Below are positions 7,819 to 11,871 of a DNA stretch of 21,398 nt, piece by piece. The position numbers and the translations under genes were made by a program. The DNA lies in contig JAZDJQ010000002.1 in NCBI GenBank assembly GCA_043803765.1, positions 1 through 21,398 of the forward strand, read 5' to 3'. The DNA comes from Candidatus Iainarchaeum sp. (GTDB taxonomy: Archaea > Iainarchaeota > Iainarchaeia > Iainarchaeales > VGJJ01). The notes beneath the pieces are model-generated. The model was not told the DNA's origin. It did not search any database and saw only the letters and a program-made list of their open reading frames with translations. Position 1 is the stretch's first letter, and the number at the start of each line of letters is the position of its first letter.

Positions 7819-7959
7819 AAAGAAAAAGAAAAAAAACGAAATGCATTATTGTGTAGCAAAAAAAAATCCAAAATGAAAACTCATCTTTTGGATAAACAAT
7901 AAACGGGTTATTGCCAATGCAAATAACTCTGCCTCGCAGCAGCCAGCCGAAACGGGTTA

Positions 7960-8031
7960 TGGACAAGGGGGGATTCGAACCCCCAGCCTCCCGCATGCGA
8001 AGCGGACGCGCTACCGTTGCGCCACTTGCCC
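7960..8031 (-). tRNA. tRNA-Ala(CGC)
   Basis: GGGCAAG TG GCGC AACGGTA GCGC G TCCGC TT-CGC-AT GCGGG AGGCT GGGGG TTCGAAT CCCCC CTTGTCC A. It carries the G3-U70 alanine determinant and no encoded CCA. A TTTTTAAA box lies at about 8058-8065. Confidence 0.97.
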
Positions 8032-8078
8032 ATTAACTATGTTGGGGGTCGCTGGGTTTAAAAAACAAGTAAAGGAGA

Positions 8079-8814: not shown

Positions 8815-9246
8815 ATGGTGGCCGAGCAAATCTTCCAATTCTTTTTGGATGGGGTAGGCACTATTTTTCTCACGTTAGCGGGAATATTTGTCATGAATAC
8901 CAAAGGTATCTCGAATCGTTTTTGGCTGATGGTAATATTCCTTGGATTATTAGGTATCAGTGCAATCGGAATAGGGGGATTCTATGACATTTTTGACAGT
9001 CCGGCATGGACAACCCCCTTCTCGCTTATCATACTCATGACCTATTTTCTTATTATCAAATTCCCTTCCTCATTCAGCATGGCCGGAACGGCCGGAATCA
9101 TCATTATCTATTTTCTCCTCCTTCCAAACCATGTCTTTTGGGCTAATTTGGTAGGGGGAACGGTATACTATCTTTTTTGGGTCGGGTTTTTTTTGGTTAC
9201 CCTCCGCTCGATGAAAGAATGGGGAAAAACTCCTTCCTCTGCCTAG
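8815..9246 (+). CDS. Multi-pass membrane protein, unknown function
   Basis: 143 aa with about 5 hydrophobic segments. It starts 10 bp after the previous stop. Confidence 0.7.
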   Translation: MVAEQIFQFFLDGVGTIFLTLAGIFVMNTKGISNRFWLMVIFLGLLGISAIGIGGFYDIFDSPAWTTPFSLIILMTYFLIIKFPSSFSMAGTAGIIIIYFLLLPNHVFWANLVGGTVYYLFWVGFFLVTLRSMKEWGKTPSSA

Positions 9247-9266
9247 AAAAAAAATTCCTTTTAAAT
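9247..9266 (+). promoter_or_regulatory. BRE/TATA promoter of the tRNA-Gln locus
   Basis: An A-run followed by TTTTAAAT (9259-9266), about 27 nt before the tRNA 5' fragment at 9293. Confidence 0.65.
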
Positions 9267-9292
9267 CTAATCACGTCACTCTTCTAGCGGTC

Positions 9293-9314
9293 AGCCCCGT
9301 GGTCTAGTGGTCTA
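9293..9314 (+). pseudogene. 5' fragment of a tRNA-Gln-type gene (acceptor 5' strand, D stem 5' strand, D loop)
   Basis: AGCCCCG TG GTCT AGTGGTCTA. AGCCCCG pairs 7/7 with CGGGGCT at 10549-10555. Confidence 0.8.
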
Positions 9315-9445
9315 TCCTCCAGCTATTTTTCATAGGGCTCTTATTTTCTCGGTTTAAACCTTTCTTCGCTGCGCTCCAAAAGGATTTAATACATCCAAAA
9401 TCGGCGAAATCGTCCGTGGAAAACCGATTCCATGGAGGAAAACAC

Positions 9446-10435
9446 ATGATTACGGCAGAATGCTGTCGGAATGATTTTAGAAGTGAAAATTGTTCCAGTA
9501 CAATGGACGACGAATTATCTATTTTTGACGCCAAATCCGATTGGTTAAATGATGAGATTTATGTGCACGGGGTTAAGGATGAAGTTAAGGAAATCGCAGA
9601 TAGATTTGGGCCGGTAAAACTCTCAAGAATTCTGAAAGTTGACTATAACAATTGTTTTAGGGAGTGGACTTGTGGAAGAAATCCTATTCGATTGTCTAAG
9701 TTAATAGAGATGATTAATTTATGCGATTCGGAAACGCAAATCAAGCTAAAAGAAAAAATTGATACTAAAGAGTTGAAAATTGGTTGTCGATACTCTCCAC
9801 ATAAAATGAGGTTTCCATCGCACGTTTCAGAAAATCTCGCATATTTAGCTGGATTAATTTTAGGAGATGGAACACTTGCTGGAGATTCGTCGAATACGAG
9901 GGGAAATTGGAACGTAGGTACATTATTTGACGACGAAAACCATCAGAAAATTTATGATAAACTAATAGAGAATGAATTTCAAATTACGCCTAATCACCAA
10001 AAGGATGAAAAGAATTGTTGGTTATCCATTTTCGGTTCAAAGACAACGCAATGGTTCTGGCGATCTTTTTTCGACATGCATAATGGATACAAAGCAAGCA
10101 TCATAACGATACCAAACGTAATTGCAAATTCTTCGAATGGAAGACTACGTGTGACCCTACTTCAAGGATTATTCGATTCGGATGGAACAATTACAAAAAG
10201 AGGTCACGTTCAGTATGCATCCACAAGCAAAGAAATGATTGAACAAGTAAGCAAAATTCTATTTTCGTTTGGTATCGCTCATGGAAAAGCATCATGGCTA
10301 AAAGATCCAAAATATCGGATGCTCCATTCTATTGCGATTCGGCGCAAAAGCAGCGTTTTAAGCTTTGCCAAGCAAATAGGGTTTAGGCACCCGCGTAAAG
10401 CGGCAATATTAGCCAAGTTTAGCCTCGTCGTCTAG
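9446..10435 (+). CDS. Free-standing two-motif LAGLIDADG homing endonuclease with N-terminal HTH-like region
   Basis: LAYLAGLILGDGT and LLQGLFDSDGT motifs, YASTSKEMIEQV, FAKQIGFRHPRK. GGAGG (9434-9438) precedes ATG 9446. No intein splicing termini. The stop TAG lies inside the downstream tRNA. Confidence 0.92.
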   Translation: MITAECCRNDFRSENCSSTMDDELSIFDAKSDWLNDEIYVHGVKDEVKEIADRFGPVKLSRILKVDYNNCFREWTCGRNPIRLSKLIEMINLCDSETQIKLKEKIDTKELKIGCRYSPHKMRFPSHVSENLAYLAGLILGDGTLAGDSSNTRGNWNVGTLFDDENHQKIYDKLIENEFQITPNHQKDEKNCWLSIFGSKTTQWFWRSFFDMHNGYKASIITIPNVIANSSNGRLRVTLLQGLFDSDGTITKRGHVQYASTSKEMIEQVSKILFSFGIAHGKASWLKDPKYRMLHSIAIRRKSSVLSFAKQIGFRHPRKAAILAKFSLVV

Positions 10436-10495
10436 CCTGGACAAAGATGCCGGCCTCTGAAGCCGGAGACGGGAGTTCGAATCTCCCCGAGGCTA
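10421..10495 (+). tRNA. tRNA-Gln(CTG), intact
   Basis: AGCCTCG TC GTCT AGCCTGGACAA AGAT G CCGGC CT-CTG-AA GCCGG AGAC GGGAG TTCGAAT CTCCC CGAGGCT A. It has the A1-U72 pair of archaeal tRNA-Gln. Anticodon at 10457-10459. Confidence 0.95.
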
Positions 10496-10498
10496 CAT

Positions 10499-10536
10499 GT
10501 TTTTTCGCCAACCTTTTGCATTAGCAAAAGGCTGGT
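10499..10536 (+). terminator. T-run plus hairpin after tRNA-Gln
   Basis: GTTTTTT, then GCCA-A-CCTTTTGC(ATTA)GCAAAAGG-C-TGGT. Confidence 0.55.
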
Positions 10537-10539
10537 TCT

Positions 10540-10556
10540 GAATCTCCGCGGGGCTA
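10540..10556 (+). pseudogene. 3' fragment of a tRNA-Gln-type gene (T loop end, T stem 3' strand, acceptor 3' strand)
   Basis: GAAT CTCCG CGGGGCT A is 15/17 identical to the 3' end of the intact tRNA. Its acceptor strand matches the 9293 fragment perfectly. Confidence 0.8.
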
Positions 10557-10674: not shown

Positions 10675-11871
10675 ATGAACTTTCGATGGGTAGGGGTAAT
10701 CGTTTTCGTCTGCTTGGTGGTTGTCATGGGTATTCTTATGGTGCCGTGGGAGGATCGTCCGCCTGCGGAGGACACGAATTCATCTTCTCCCCAAGATAAT
10801 AATCACCCCGTGGCTGATGTGTTGGAGAAGCCATCCGGCCTCACGTACGCATACGGAAGCAAATTCGAGCCTCCAGATGGATATGTGTTCTACGGGTACG
10901 GGCAATGGGTGGATTACAACGATAAACTTACTGCAAAAGTAAACAATCCATCATTGCAGCCCGCAAGCGAGTTATTGTTCATCGATATTGGAGACACCCC
11001 GAGAGGATGGAACCCATCTACTATTCGAATGGCATTTGAGCGGATGGAAAGAAATCAGGTGATTCCGAGTATTGATATTGCTTTTCGGGGAAACCATGTG
11101 GATATTTCATCGCTGGATGACCCCTATTATGGTATTGATGAGGAAATTCCAATCAGTATGAAATATCAGCAGCGCATTCGGGACGTGGCGCAGATAGTAA
11201 AGGAATACGGGAAGCCCGTGTTCGTTCGTCTGGGAGGCGAGTTCAATGGTAATTGGAATGGGTATCAACCTTATGCTTATCCGAAAGCGTTCCGAACGGC
11301 GGTGAATATATTTCGCGAGGAAGGGGCAGACAATGCGGCGTTCGTTTGGTGTTACATGCCGGCAGCCCCCGATGATTATTTTGATATGGATGAGAATGGG
11401 AATGCCAAGTGGTTCCCTGGCGATGAATACGTTGATTGGTATTCCATCGACGTGTTCAACCCTAATCAGTTTTCAGGATCGGAATACCGGAGTGATGGAA
11501 AATTGACGAATTATGGAAAGACGCTGGCCTTTCTCTCTGCGGCGGAAGCCCACGGGAAGCCGGTCTTCATCGCGGAAAGCTCTTCCGTCGAAGTAGGCCT
11601 CGATCCCTCATTGAAAACGGGGAAAGCAGTTTGGTCGAGTTGGTTTGTCCCCTATTTCGCGTTCATCCGTGATCACCCCATCATCAAGGGATTCGTCTAC
11701 ATCAACTATGATTGGACCCAGGCGGCTAATTATAAAAAGCAGGGATGGAAGAATGGGGATCTTACGGAAAACGAATACGTGTTGCAGCTCTTCATGGAAG
11801 AACTAGTAAAGGACTTCTACATCAAGAGTCCGCAGCGCCATTGGCTGATGGAGTATGATCGGTTTACGTGA
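10675..11871 (+). CDS. Membrane-anchored/secreted glycoside hydrolase family 26-like protein
   Basis: N-terminal TM/signal segment. VFVRLGGEFNGNW carries the acid/base Glu, WFPGDEYVDWYSIDVFN is family-typical, and KPVFIAES carries the nucleophile Glu. Confidence 0.88.
   Translation: MNFRWVGVIVFVCLVVVMGILMVPWEDRPPAEDTNSSSPQDNNHPVADVLEKPSGLTYAYGSKFEPPDGYVFYGYGQWVDYNDKLTAKVNNPSLQPASELLFIDIGDTPRGWNPSTIRMAFERMERNQVIPSIDIAFRGNHVDISSLDDPYYGIDEEIPISMKYQQRIRDVAQIVKEYGKPVFVRLGGEFNGNWNGYQPYAYPKAFRTAVNIFREEGADNAAFVWCYMPAAPDDYFDMDENGNAKWFPGDEYVDWYSIDVFNPNQFSGSEYRSDGKLTNYGKTLAFLSAAEAHGKPVFIAESSSVEVGLDPSLKTGKAVWSSWFVPYFAFIRDHPIIKGFVYINYDWTQAANYKKQGWKNGDLTENEYVLQLFMEELVKDFYIKSPQRHWLMEYDRFT

What the first reader, a model, noticed from the sequence alone, without database searches (positions are those of the whole stretch)
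10411..10440. Endonuclease ORF terminates inside the tRNA it carries
Seen: the last codons AGC CTC GTC GTC TAG (S-L-V-V-stop) are tRNA positions 1-15, and the stop is U13-A14-G15 of the D arm. Inference: the overlap welds nuclease and rescue tRNA together. RNase P cleavage at 10421 would also strip the stop codon from the nuclease mRNA, coupling tRNA maturation to silencing of a toxic nuclease. I see no convincing TATA box just upstream of 10421, so the tRNA may be processed from a ~1.2-kb precursor starting near 9290.
Basis: partly seen in the sequence, partly recalled or inferred. Interest (0 to 1): 0.75.

Follow-up and report, generated by a model that had tools for sequence, protein, structure and literature searches.

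The report
Homing endonuclease gene welded to tRNA-Gln
A selfish DNA-cutting enzyme gene in a tiny DPANN archaeon runs straight into the glutamine tRNA gene and takes its stop codon from it, and relatives across the phylum do the same at this and other tRNA genes, an arrangement I could not find described in print.

Summary
The LAGLIDADG ORF (9446/9503..10435) ends AGC CTC GTC GTC TAG, which is tRNA-Gln(CUG) positions 1-15 (tRNA 10421-10495). The stop is U13-A14-G15.

It is not a one-off. All 25 family loci checked across Iainarchaeota sit at a tRNA-Gln(CUG). In 19 of 26 scorable loci the stop lies inside the tRNA. In the other 7 it lies 1-34 nt upstream. Of 25 other free-standing LAGLIDADG ORFs, 21-23 touch a tRNA with their 3' end, 7 of them antisense. 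One is in this genome, at tRNA-Arg.

Best reading: a free-standing homing endonuclease gene parked at the tRNA gene it targets or travels with. The overlap is a DNA-level by-product of tight linkage. In this window the cassette lies between stumps of an older tRNA-Gln gene (9293-9312 with its own TATA; 10536-10556), so "rescue tRNA" is plausible here.

RNase P-coupled silencing is untested and not a conserved requirement. An internal promoter (10354-10363) cannot be excluded.

Earlier notes of this scan report the same theme in other DPANN and Patescibacteria genomes. Four literature searches found no description.

The parts
9258..9267 (+). TATA-like box (CTTTTAAATC). It lies 35 nt upstream of the 5' tRNA stump and is probably the promoter of the former resident tRNA-Gln gene.
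   Evidence: The PWM built from 25 tRNA upstream regions of this genome scores it 7.5. It is one of only two hits of 6.5 or more in 9200-10440.
9293..9312 (+). 5' stump of a tRNA-Gln gene, positions 1-20 (AGCCCCGTGGTCTAGTGGTC). Similarity to the tRNA ends in the D loop.
   Evidence: It matches 19 of 20 bases of the 5' end of tRNA-Gln(UUG) on contig C18. Genome-wide only two hits exist at 3 or fewer mismatches, this one and the real tRNA.
9351..9360 (+). Second TATA-like box (GGTTTAAACC), a candidate promoter of the nuclease gene.
   Evidence: PWM score 8.8. Inferred only.
9446..10435 (+). LAGLIDADG homing endonuclease ORF. ATG 9446 is preceded by GGAGG at 9434-9438. The start conserved in relatives is ATG 9503, and the ORF lister starts at GTG 9416. 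The stop codon is included.
   Evidence: The AF2 model has pLDDT 90.2. Foldseek hits are TliVMA and PI-PfuI inteins and I-DmoI.
9845..9871 (+). First LAGLIDADG motif (LAGLILGDG) with its conserved Asp.
   Evidence: Coordinates are computed from A1 numbering. D122 is invariant in 25 sequences.
10160..10186 (+). Second LAGLIDADG motif (LQGLFDSDG) with its conserved Asp.
   Evidence: D227 is invariant in 25 sequences. The sequence was read.
10354..10363 (+). Candidate internal TATA-like box (CGTTTTAAGC) inside the ORF, 67 nt upstream of the tRNA.
   Evidence: PWM score 6.2, below my 6.5 cut-off. The codons GTT TTA do not vary at synonymous sites in 13 and 10 sequences. The box is retained in the G004 and G005 remnants.
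10421..10495 (+). Intact tRNA-Gln(CUG). Its acceptor stem AGCCTCG/CGAGGCT differs from both stumps.
10421..10435 (+). The 15-nt overlap of ORF and tRNA. The stop TAG at 10433-10435 is U13-A14-G15.
10500..10505 (+). T6 run after the tRNA, a likely archaeal terminator.
   Evidence: Its function is inferred.
10512..10531 (+). Hairpin CCTTTTGC-ATTA-GCAAAAGG, unique in this genome. Near-identical hairpins precede 3' tRNA-Gln stumps in G116 and G110.
10536..10556 (+). 3' stump of a tRNA-Gln gene, from the T loop to the discriminator base (TTCTGAATCTCCGCGGGGCTA). It has no T-stem partner.
10066..10071 (+). T6 run inside the ORF. T5 runs lie at 9326-9330 and 9522-9526. All are possible partial terminators for read-through from upstream promoters.
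   Evidence: Inferred.

Best explanation
This is a free-standing, probably still active, two-motif LAGLIDADG homing endonuclease gene. It sits immediately 5' of the chromosomal tRNA-Gln(CUG) gene and reads into it. The ORF has no stop codon of its own and uses U13-A14-G15 of the tRNA.

It belongs to a nuclease family that has kept this position at tRNA-Gln(CUG) while Iainarchaeota (DPANN) diversified. Copies come and go between related genomes as intact, broken, remnant or absent, which is how selfish homing genes behave.

The overlap is most likely a DNA-level consequence of very tight linkage between the nuclease gene and the conserved tRNA gene that it targets or travels with. The 3' end of the ORF needs no control sequence, so it can be pressed against the tRNA. 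The tRNA-encoded tail is incidental.

In this window the cassette (nuclease plus tRNA) lies between a 5' stump (positions 1-20, still with its own TATA box) and a 3' stump (positions 54-73) of an older tRNA-Gln gene. Here the nuclease probably arrived together with the tRNA it reads into and overwrote the resident gene.

Shown: the anatomy, the family-wide association, the presence/absence pattern and the conserved catalytic residues. Inferred: nuclease activity, the target site, the overwriting event and how the tRNA is transcribed.
For: Identity of the protein:
- Pfam PF14528 scores 61.4 bits.
- Both motif Asp residues are invariant in 25 sequences.
- The AF2 model has pLDDT 90.2, and Foldseek hits are intein-type and I-DmoI nucleases at probability 1.00.

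Position:
- 27 of 215 Iainarchaeota genomes carry a family member at E <= 1e-50.
- All 25 linked tRNAs align as tRNA-Gln with anticodon CTG.
- Of 26 scorable loci, 19 stop inside the tRNA, 12 of them at positions 13-15. The other 7 stop 1-34 nt upstream.

The tail is incidental: three frames are used, giving SPVV*, APWSSG* and ALSSS...*.

Selfish life cycle:
- The locus is syntenic (HerA-like gene, tRNA-Ala, small ORFs, [nuclease], tRNA-Gln, pyrG).
- The nuclease is intact in 6 genomes, a 30-35-codon remnant in G004 and G005, and absent in G002 and G003.
- Broken copies occur in G116, G025 and G111.

Generality: 14 same-strand, 2 probable and 7 antisense tRNA contacts among 25 other LAGLIDADG ORFs. 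One is in this genome at tRNA-Arg(GCG), with TAA at positions 13-15.

Overwriting in this window:
- Both stumps carry the ancestral C5/G68, while the inner tRNA has T5/A68, C9 and a different D loop.
- A TATA-like box lies 35 nt upstream of the 5' stump.
- G116 has the same layout, with a near-identical hairpin before its 3' stump.
- The C14 locus also has a hairpin before a 3' stump, but its hairpin sequence differs.
Against: - No cleavage assay and no RNA data exist, so activity, target and transcription are inferences.
- 5' stumps occur in only 2 of 27 family loci. At 3 or fewer mismatches, none of 18 other nuclease-tRNA loci has one. Overwriting is therefore not shown to be the general route.
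- 3' stumps with hairpins also follow tRNA-Gln genes that lack the nuclease (G002, G018, G209). They may have another origin. The same genome holds integrase-type scars at tRNA-Met, according to an earlier scan note that I did not test.
- The nuclease tree follows host families exactly: 8 label changes, the minimum possible. That fits long vertical descent and would also fit a domesticated gene.
- tRNA 5' sequences of alleles with and without the nuclease are often identical, so how occupied alleles escape cutting is unexplained.
Confidence: 0.7

Rival explanations
1. The tRNA has no promoter of its own and is cut by RNase P out of a roughly 1.2-kb precursor that starts near 9290. The same cut removes the nuclease's stop codon, so tRNA maturation silences a toxic nuclease.
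For: - No TATA-like hit of 6.5 or more lies in 9361-10440, while hits lie at 9258 (35 nt upstream of the stump) and 9351.
- The stop lies inside the tRNA in 19 of 26 loci. Any mRNA that carries its stop codon therefore also carries the RNase P site. This follows from established RNase P biology.
- The gap between ORF and tRNA is never more than 34 nt, which leaves no room for an external promoter.
Against: - 7 of 26 homologues have their own stop upstream of the tRNA.
- 7 of 25 other LAGLIDADG ORFs face their tRNA antisense, where RNase P plays no part.
- T5/T6 runs at 9326, 9522 and 10066 would attenuate read-through.
- A conserved TATA-like CGTTTTAAGC lies 67 nt upstream of the tRNA. Its GTT TTA codons do not vary, and it is retained in the G004 and G005 remnants.
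- 10 of 27 more distant loci have TATA-like hits 34-50 nt upstream of the tRNA, inside the ORF.
Confidence: 0.15
2. Home-and-rescue cassette as the general mechanism. The mobile unit is nuclease plus a cleavage-resistant tRNA, possibly with the T-run and hairpin. The nuclease cuts resident cognate tRNA genes. The cassette replaces their middle and leaves 5' and 3' stumps. Hairpin-plus-stump units without a nuclease, and tandem units, are footprints of earlier invasions.
For: - A stump-nuclease-tRNA-hairpin-stump layout occurs at G000 tRNA-Gln, at G116 tRNA-Gln (two 5' stumps) and, in degenerate form, at G000 C14 tRNA-Arg.
- The hairpin before the 3' stump is near-identical in G000, G116 and G110. 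The C14 hairpin differs in sequence.
- Tandem 3' units occur in G002, G018 and G110.
- The inner tRNA differs from the stumps at positions 5, 9 and 68 and in the D loop.
- The 5' stump ends at position 20, where 8-11 of 25 linked tRNAs carry an intron.
Against: - Only 2 of 27 family loci have a 5' stump.
- Hairpin-plus-stump units also occur at nuclease-free loci and at tRNA-Gln(UUG).
- A separate small element with the same kind of hairpin sits between a 15-nt 5' copy and the real tRNA, with no nuclease, in 8 genomes plus G116. Stumps can therefore arise without this nuclease.
- Altered D loops in nuclease-linked alleles hold only within the genus (6 of 8). Seven linked alleles elsewhere have ordinary D loops.
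Confidence: 0.35
3. The stumps are unrelated to the nuclease. They are attachment-site scars or small insertions left by other mobile elements that use tRNA genes, and the nuclease simply sits upstream of the tRNA.
For: - 3' stumps occur at 2 of 7 nuclease-free tRNA-Gln(CUG) loci.
- Earlier scan notes describe integrase-type scars at tRNA-Met in this genome (not tested by me).
- The small hairpin element occurs without a nuclease.
Against: - Only 40 nt separate the tRNA from the 3' stump, and no integrase or ORF lies between them.
- The 5' stump keeps a promoter and lies exactly at the outer edge of the nuclease cassette.
- The two family loci with 5' stumps are the same two that have this hairpin and a 3' stump.
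Confidence: 0.3
4. A domesticated LAGLIDADG protein with a cellular role, for example in tRNA-Gln expression or as a DNA-binding regulator, rather than a selfish nuclease.
For: - The nuclease tree mirrors host families.
- 23 of 27 family copies are full-length, despite identity down to about 40%.
- WhiA, a LAGLIDADG-fold regulator, is among the fold hits.
Against: - The distribution is patchy, 27 of 215 genomes.
- Remnants and broken copies exist in close relatives that keep the tRNA.
- Both catalytic Asp residues are invariant.
- Other LAGLIDADG families touch other tRNAs in either orientation.
Confidence: 0.08
5. The nuclease lies in a giant archaeal (bulge-helix-bulge) intron at position 20/21 of a tRNA-Gln gene whose exons are the two stumps.
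For: The 5' stump ends at position 20, the site of D-loop introns in relatives. Archaeal LAGLIDADG nucleases are known from such introns in rRNA (recalled; I-DmoI and I-Tsp061I are among the fold hits).
Against: The stumps together cover only positions 1-20 and 54-73, with no anticodon arm. A complete tRNA (Rfam positions 1-71 of 71) lies inside. I saw no bulge-helix-bulge pairing by eye and ran no formal search.
Confidence: 0.03

Closest known systems
Mobile endonuclease ORFs (mORFs) of fungal mitochondria: Allomyces macrogynus atp6; Glomus atp6, atp9, cox2, nad3 (PMC3630166; passages read with 'find')
   Same: A LAGLIDADG or GIY-YIG endonuclease ORF inserts into a gene without an intron. It brings a replacement copy of part of that gene and leaves the native part as a nearby duplicate. 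The ORF can be in phase with, and lack a stop before, the carried piece.
   Different: There the target is a protein gene in mitochondria and the carried piece is its 3' end. Here the target is an archaeal chromosomal tRNA gene. The ORF reads into the 5' end of the tRNA, the unwanted upstream RNA would be removed by tRNA processing, and stumps are seen in only a minority of loci.
Phage T4 SegB, a free-standing GIY-YIG homing endonuclease in the tRNA gene cluster (PMC2330249; outline and abstract read)
   Same: A free-standing homing endonuclease lies among tRNA genes. Its recognition site contains the conserved T-psi-C motif of a tRNA gene, and it drives inheritance of itself and of neighbouring tRNA genes (intronless homing).
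   Different: SegB belongs to another nuclease family and acts in a phage. No ORF-tRNA overlap is reported in the abstract. Here the association is one nuclease family to one tRNA species, in cellular chromosomes, and has lasted across a phylum.
Archaeal intron- and intein-encoded single-chain LAGLIDADG nucleases (I-DmoI, I-Tsp061I, PI-PfuI, TliVMA intein)
   Same: They are the closest in sequence and fold: hmmsearch E 3.8e-12 to PI-PfuI, Foldseek E 1e-11 to 1e-7. They share the two-motif monomer and the catalytic Asp pair.
   Different: Those sit inside introns or inteins that splice out. This one has neither. It has an extra N-terminal helical region of about 105 residues and abuts a complete tRNA.
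LAGLIDADG-bearing insertion sequences in rRNA genes of CPR bacteria (PMC11270868; search listing and start of abstract only)
   Same: Homing endonuclease genes inserted in structural RNA genes of ultra-small organisms.
   Different: rRNA rather than tRNA, and bacteria rather than archaea. I did not read the paper, so further comparison is open.
tRNA punctuation of animal mitochondrial transcripts (recalled, not looked up)
   Same: tRNA excision defines the 3' end of an upstream mRNA and can decide whether it has a stop codon.
   Different: There, processing completes stop codons. Here it would remove one. Nothing at the RNA level has been shown for this locus.

Membership tests
LAGLIDADG homing endonucleases (single-chain, two motifs; Pfam PF14528) | Profile match above the curated cut-off | tested here: met
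   PF14528 scores 61.4 bits against a cut-off of 22.5, E 9.9e-17.
LAGLIDADG homing endonucleases (single-chain, two motifs; Pfam PF14528) | Two LAGLIDADG helices, each ending in the metal-binding acidic residue | tested here: met
   The motifs are LAGLILGDG and LQGLFDSDG. D122 and D227 are invariant in 25 family sequences.
LAGLIDADG homing endonucleases (single-chain, two motifs; Pfam PF14528) | Pseudo-dimeric alpha-beta-beta-alpha-beta-beta-alpha fold | tested here: met
   The AF2 model has pLDDT 90.2. Foldseek gives probability 1.00 to TliVMA and PI-PfuI inteins and I-DmoI, with TM up to 0.79 on the target.
LAGLIDADG homing endonucleases (single-chain, two motifs; Pfam PF14528) | Site-specific double-strand cleavage of a long target | not testable with these tools
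   Needs a cleavage assay.
Free-standing homing endonuclease genes (intronless homing, T4 Seg/Mob type) | ORF not embedded in an intron or intein | tested here: met
   A stand-alone ORF of 310-329 aa with its own candidate promoter and ribosome-binding site. It is followed by a complete tRNA, and no extein is present.
Free-standing homing endonuclease genes (intronless homing, T4 Seg/Mob type) | Presence/absence polymorphism at one syntenic locus among close relatives, with decaying copies | tested here: met
   Intact in 6 genomes, remnant in G004 and G005, absent in G002 and G003, all at the same locus. Broken copies occur in G116, G025 and G111.
Free-standing homing endonuclease genes (intronless homing, T4 Seg/Mob type) | The nuclease cuts the nuclease-free allele close to its own gene, and the occupied allele is resistant | tested here: inconclusive
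   6 of 8 linked alleles in the genus have altered D loops, while nuclease-free alleles and the 5' stump have the ordinary one. Seven linked alleles in other families have ordinary D loops. Cleavage itself cannot be tested here.
mORF-type elements (endonuclease ORF plus replacement part of the invaded gene) | A duplicate, native part of the invaded gene lies beside the element | tested here: inconclusive
   Met in this window (5' stump 9293-9312, 3' stump 10536-10556) and in G116. A 5' stump occurs in only 2 of 27 family loci.
mORF-type elements (endonuclease ORF plus replacement part of the invaded gene) | The carried copy diverges from the native stump | tested here: met
   The inner tRNA has T5, C9, A68 and the D loop AGCCTGGACAAAG. 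The stumps have C5, G9, G68 and AGTGGTC.
mORF-type elements (endonuclease ORF plus replacement part of the invaded gene) | The ORF is fused to, or lacks a stop before, the carried gene part | tested here: met
   A 15-nt overlap with the stop inside the tRNA.
Archaeal bulge-helix-bulge intron-encoded nucleases | The ORF lies in an intron whose two exons together make a complete RNA gene | tested here: not met
   The stumps cover only positions 1-20 and 54-73. A complete tRNA (Rfam 1-71 of 71) lies inside the putative intron.
Integrase-type integrated elements at tRNA genes (attachment-site scars) | Direct repeat of the tRNA 3' end, with an element (integrase or its remains) between the repeats | tested here: not met
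   The repeat is present, but only 40 nt (a T run and a hairpin) lie between the tRNA and the stump, with no ORF. I did not search the window for integrase genes.

The most novel reading that the evidence does not exclude
Iainarchaeota, and DPANN and Patescibacteria more widely according to earlier scan notes, carry natural 'cut-and-rescue' gene-drive cassettes aimed at tRNA genes. Each LAGLIDADG nuclease family cuts one resident tRNA gene and overwrites it with a cassette in which the nuclease ORF is physically fused to a cleavage-resistant replacement tRNA, so recombination cannot separate drive from rescue. Stumps, hairpin units and D-loop introns at position 20/21 would be the fossil record, and the defences, of repeated invasions. 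tRNA processing by RNase P would stand in for splicing, making the cassette harmless without any ribozyme or intein.
Probability: 0.3. Interest if true: 0.85.

Novelty: new variant of a known kind. Interest (0 to 1): 0.7.

Why it matters
Homing endonuclease genes are thought to survive in essential genes by hiding in self-splicing introns or inteins. Here a whole set of LAGLIDADG families in ultra-small archaea has neither. Instead each presses its 3' end against a specific tRNA gene, often taking the stop codon from the tRNA.

If the proposed logic holds (a conserved tRNA gene as target, tRNA processing instead of splicing, and in some loci a replacement tRNA brought along), this is a third way for such genes to be harmless. 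It would be a natural counterpart of engineered cleave-and-rescue drives.

There are practical consequences:
- These ORFs and their tRNAs are easily mis-annotated. ARAGORN missed the tRNA-Arg at C14 and mislabelled intron-bearing tRNA-Gln genes.
- Nucleases that recognise tRNA genes would be new specificities.
- The stumps and D-loop introns give a testable record of past conflict at tRNA genes.

Tried and rejected
- RNA evidence: the look-up of sequencing runs listed no RNA holder.
- Viral origin: 11 viral contigs encode only weak relatives, 23-44% identity over parts of the protein. I did not follow them.
- Wider DNA context: genome contigs returned five loci with the same coordinates and contig lengths as five found by the genome search. 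Metagenome contigs gave three short contigs, two with the tRNA-Gln at the ORF end and one ending at the ORF end.
- D loop as the cleavage target: three hints converge on positions 20-23. They are the stump end points, the introns at position 20 in 8-11 of 25 linked tRNAs, and the altered D loops within the genus. However, nuclease-free genomes in the same families also seem to have D-loop introns (rows, read by eye), and 7 linked alleles have ordinary D loops. I keep it only as a lead.
- Giant-intron reading: rejected because exon parts are missing.
- Stumps as exons of a second functional tRNA: rejected. No D stem, T stem or anticodon arm can be formed (sequence read by eye).
- Hairpin 10512-10531 as a dispersed repeat: rejected. 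It is unique in the genome at 2 or fewer mismatches.
- TATA scoring: my PWM is rough. 7 of 25 genuine tRNA upstream regions score below 6.5, and 15% of random 115-nt windows reach 6.5. It cannot decide between an internal promoter and co-transcription.
- I did not compute dN/dS (identity of 55-72% is too saturated). I did not use complex prediction. I did not work out what the small hairpin element next to 15-nt tRNA-Gln 5' copies is.
Full report
**1. The observation**

The window is contig C2 of a 1.02-Mb, 19-contig genome with 42% G+C. Record titles of related loci name Candidatus Iainarchaeum, a DPANN archaeon. Earlier scan notes say the same.

The ORF 9416..10435 (+) ends ...AKFSLVV*. ARAGORN finds tRNA-Gln(ctg) at 10421-10496. 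Rfam's tRNA model matches 10421-10495 at 59.6 bits over model positions 1-71 of 71. The last five codons, AGC CTC GTC GTC TAG, are tRNA positions 1-15, and TAG (10433-10435) is U13-A14-G15.

The protein is a LAGLIDADG nuclease:
- Pfam PF14528 scores 61.4 bits against a cut-off of 22.5.
- It has two motifs, LAGLILGDG and LQGLFDSDG.
- The AF2 model has pLDDT 90.2.
- Its nearest solved folds are the nuclease parts of the TliVMA and PI-PfuI inteins and I-DmoI.

Likely starts are ATG 9446, seven bases after GGAGG, or ATG 9503, the start shared by all orthologues.

**2. The family at tRNA-Gln(CUG)**

Orthologues with 55-66% identity occur in five of 40 relatives first searched. C-terminal remnants occur in two more. 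All eight loci, the window's own included, abut a tRNA-Gln(ctg), and the frame runs into it. All six full-length ORFs are open.

A search of 5.8 billion proteins gave 26 family members with 39-72% identity. By eye, against the three-frame translations, 18 of the 26 end in tRNA-Gln-derived peptides:
- 9 end in SPVV-type tails, and 2 more read through after SPVV.
- 6 are in the ALSSS-type frame.
- 1 is in the APWSSG frame.
- 8 show no such tail, one of them truncated.

Across 215 Iainarchaeota genomes, 27 carry a family member at E <= 1e-50. All 25 linked tRNAs that I could cut out align to tRNA-Gln with CTG at the anticodon. Many carry introns near position 20 and/or 38. ARAGORN's other labels for these intron-bearing genes are, I think, mis-assignments.

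Of 26 loci where the ORF end can be scored:
- 19 stop inside the tRNA. Twelve are at positions 13-15. One uses T plus A1-G2.
- 7 have their own stop 1-34 nt upstream.

So homologues do end in tRNA-derived peptides, but not always and not in one frame. The tail itself is not conserved. The abutment is.

**3. Selfish-gene behaviour**

The locus is syntenic: HerA-like gene, small gene, tRNA-Ala(cgc), small ORFs, [nuclease], tRNA-Gln(CUG), pyrG. The nuclease is intact in six genomes. It is a 30-35-codon remnant in G004 and G005, which share one deletion/insertion event. It is absent in G002 and G003, where a TATA box lies about 37-40 nt upstream of the tRNA. Broken copies occur in G116, G025 and G111. 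Both motif Asp residues are invariant in 25 sequences.

The nuclease tree (23 rows; broken copies and remnants left out) follows host families exactly, with 8 label changes, the minimum possible. Descent has therefore been mostly vertical or among close kin. This fits long residence with repeated loss. It leaves a small chance of domestication.

**4. Not only tRNA-Gln**

I examined 25 further free-standing-size LAGLIDADG ORFs, taken in list order. About ten more candidates were not fetched. The results:
- 14 read into a tRNA on the same strand.
- 2 more are followed at once by a tRNA 3' half.
- 7 run into a tRNA on the opposite strand.
- 2 have no tRNA. One of these lies inside a 16S rRNA gene.

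The tRNAs include Leu, Arg, Thr, Val and Gly. One case is in this genome: C14:41406-42473 ends ...SARVV*, with TAA at positions 13-15 of a tRNA-Arg(GCG) that ARAGORN missed. Rfam scores that tRNA at 60.3 bits.

It is always the 3' end of the ORF that touches the tRNA, and either orientation occurs. The common cause is therefore more likely at the DNA level (linkage to a target) than at the RNA level.

**5. What is special in this window**

Upstream of the nuclease lies AGCCCCGTGGTCTAGTGGTC (9293-9312), positions 1-20 of a tRNA-Gln. A TATA-like box lies 35 nt upstream of it, at 9258-9267. Downstream of the intact tRNA come a T6 run, a hairpin (10512-10531) and then TTCTGAATCTCCGCGGGGCTA (10536-10556), which runs from the T loop to the 3' end.

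Both stumps have the usual C5/G68. The inner tRNA has T5/A68, C9 and a different D loop. The simplest reading is that a resident tRNA-Gln gene was overwritten by a cassette that brought the nuclease and the tRNA it reads into.

G116, in another family, has the same layout with two 5' stumps and a near-identical hairpin. The C14 locus has a degenerate version with a different hairpin.

Against generality:
- Only 2 of 27 family loci have a 5' stump.
- None of 18 other nuclease-tRNA loci has one at 3 or fewer mismatches.
- Hairpin-plus-3'-stump units also follow tRNA-Gln genes without a nuclease (G002 twice, G018 twice, G110 twice, G209).

**6. How the tRNA is transcribed**

A PWM built from 25 tRNA upstream regions of this genome finds only two hits of 6.5 or more in 9200-10440. 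They lie at 9258 and 9351, both upstream of the ORF.

Other evidence points the other way:
- The best internal site, CGTTTTAAGC at 10354-10363 (score 6.2), is 67 nt upstream of the tRNA. It occurs in 6 of the 8 f1-family loci.
- Its codons are GTT in 13 of 13 sequences and TTA in 10 of 10 sequences with Leu. Where Leu is replaced, the codon is ATA in both Ile sequences and AAA in the one Lys sequence. Neighbouring synonymous sites vary.
- The site survives in the G004 and G005 remnants.
- 10 of 27 loci, all outside this family (f1), have TATA-like hits 34-50 nt upstream of the tRNA, inside the ORF.
- T5/T6 runs lie at 9326, 9522 and 10066.

The PWM is rough, and no RNA run was listed. Co-transcription and an internal promoter both remain open.

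The RNase P argument is sound as logic: any mRNA that keeps its stop codon contains the RNase P site. A regulatory role is unshown. The 7 of 26 homologues with their own stops, and the antisense cases, show it is not a conserved necessity.

**7. Comparison with what is known**

The closest design is the mitochondrial mORF. It is an endonuclease ORF that inserts into a gene, brings a replacement part and leaves the native part as a duplicate, sometimes without a stop before the carried piece (PMC3630166, passages read).

The closest functional precedent for a nuclease aimed at tRNA genes is T4 SegB, whose site includes the T-psi-C motif (PMC2330249, abstract read).

Four searches (listings only) turned up no description of LAGLIDADG ORFs fused to tRNA genes in archaea. 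The library is limited to open-access papers and preprints.

Earlier notes of this scan report the same theme at other tRNAs in other DPANN and Patescibacteria genomes. They are unchecked AI notes. My own survey inside Iainarchaeota agrees with them.

**8. Verdict**

The 'welded nuclease and tRNA' reading is supported as anatomy and as a family trait. 'Rescue tRNA' is plausible for this window but not shown to be general. RNase P-coupled silencing is untested and not required.

I class the finding as a new variant of a known kind: a free-standing or mORF-like homing endonuclease gene that uses a tRNA gene boundary.

Noticed in passing
L135:506-1574 (G000 contig C14:41406-42473); tRNA at L135:1560-1633: The second free-standing LAGLIDADG ORF of this genome (about 25% identity) ends ...SARVV*, with TAA at positions 13-15 of a tRNA-Arg(GCG). 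ARAGORN missed this tRNA and Rfam scores it 60.3 bits. A hairpin plus a degenerate tRNA-Arg 3' stump lies about 80-100 nt downstream, and a degenerate 5' stump lies upstream of the ORF.
   Followed up: partly
L115-L134, L089, L090, L009 (relatives): Free-standing LAGLIDADG ORFs of Iainarchaeota almost always touch a tRNA gene (Leu, Arg, Thr, Val, Gly) with their 3' end. Of 25 examined, 14 do so on the same strand, 2 probably do, and 7 do so antisense.
   Followed up: partly
L102-L109 (G051:C5, G096:C21, G099:C16, G100:C52, G103:C58, G121:C113, G152:C79, G163:C1); also L084:1355-1400: A small element sits in front of tRNA-Gln(UUG or CUG) genes. In order it has a 15-nt copy of the tRNA 5' end, a hairpin (..CCTTTT-loop-AAAAGG..), GCGAAAAAA, an inverted copy of tRNA positions 4-13 and a short spacer, followed by the real tRNA. 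The promoter lies upstream of the copy. The reverse complement of the window's 10497-10535 resembles the hairpin plus A-run part. Its nature is unknown.
   Followed up: partly
L033 (G002), L027 (G018), L112 (G110), L113 and L114 (G209), L103, L107: One or two tandem units of hairpin plus tRNA-Gln 3' end (from the T loop onward) lie downstream of tRNA-Gln genes that have no nuclease. This includes a genome of another class (G209), at both of its tRNA-Gln genes.
   Followed up: partly
Family loci L062-L086: tRNA-Gln(CUG) genes of many Iainarchaeota carry introns in the D loop (about position 20) and/or at 37/38, sometimes both. ARAGORN then assigns wrong anticodons (Ser, Glu, Gly, Lys, Leu, Arg).
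   Followed up: partly
Whole genome G000: ARAGORN finds only 28 tRNA genes in a genome that is 93% complete. At least one ordinary-looking tRNA (Arg-GCG on C14) was missed, so the tRNA set is under-called.
   Followed up: no
window 10675-11871: A GH26-like glycosyl hydrolase gene lies between tRNA-Gln and pyrG only in this genome. In relatives pyrG follows the tRNA within about 60-1400 nt. It is a local insertion just beyond the 3' stump.
   Followed up: no
L013, L014 (G004, G005), about 100-420 nt upstream of tRNA-Gln: In both genomes the body of the nuclease gene is replaced by the same DNA, which may encode a divergently oriented gene with an A+T-rich promoter region. It is a single shared event.
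   Followed up: no
window 9452-9465; L004, L005 upstream of the nuclease start; L135 about 55 nt before the ATG: A motif GGC(G/A)GAA(T/C)(G/A)G recurs just upstream of, or at the start of, nuclease ORFs of two different LAGLIDADG families. In the window it falls in the optional N-terminal extension MITAEC.., which is shared with database homologues P0007 and P0008.
   Followed up: no
window 7959-8032 (-): tRNA-Ala(cgc) is syntenic with the tRNA-Gln locus in relatives, but its orientation differs between genomes.
   Followed up: no
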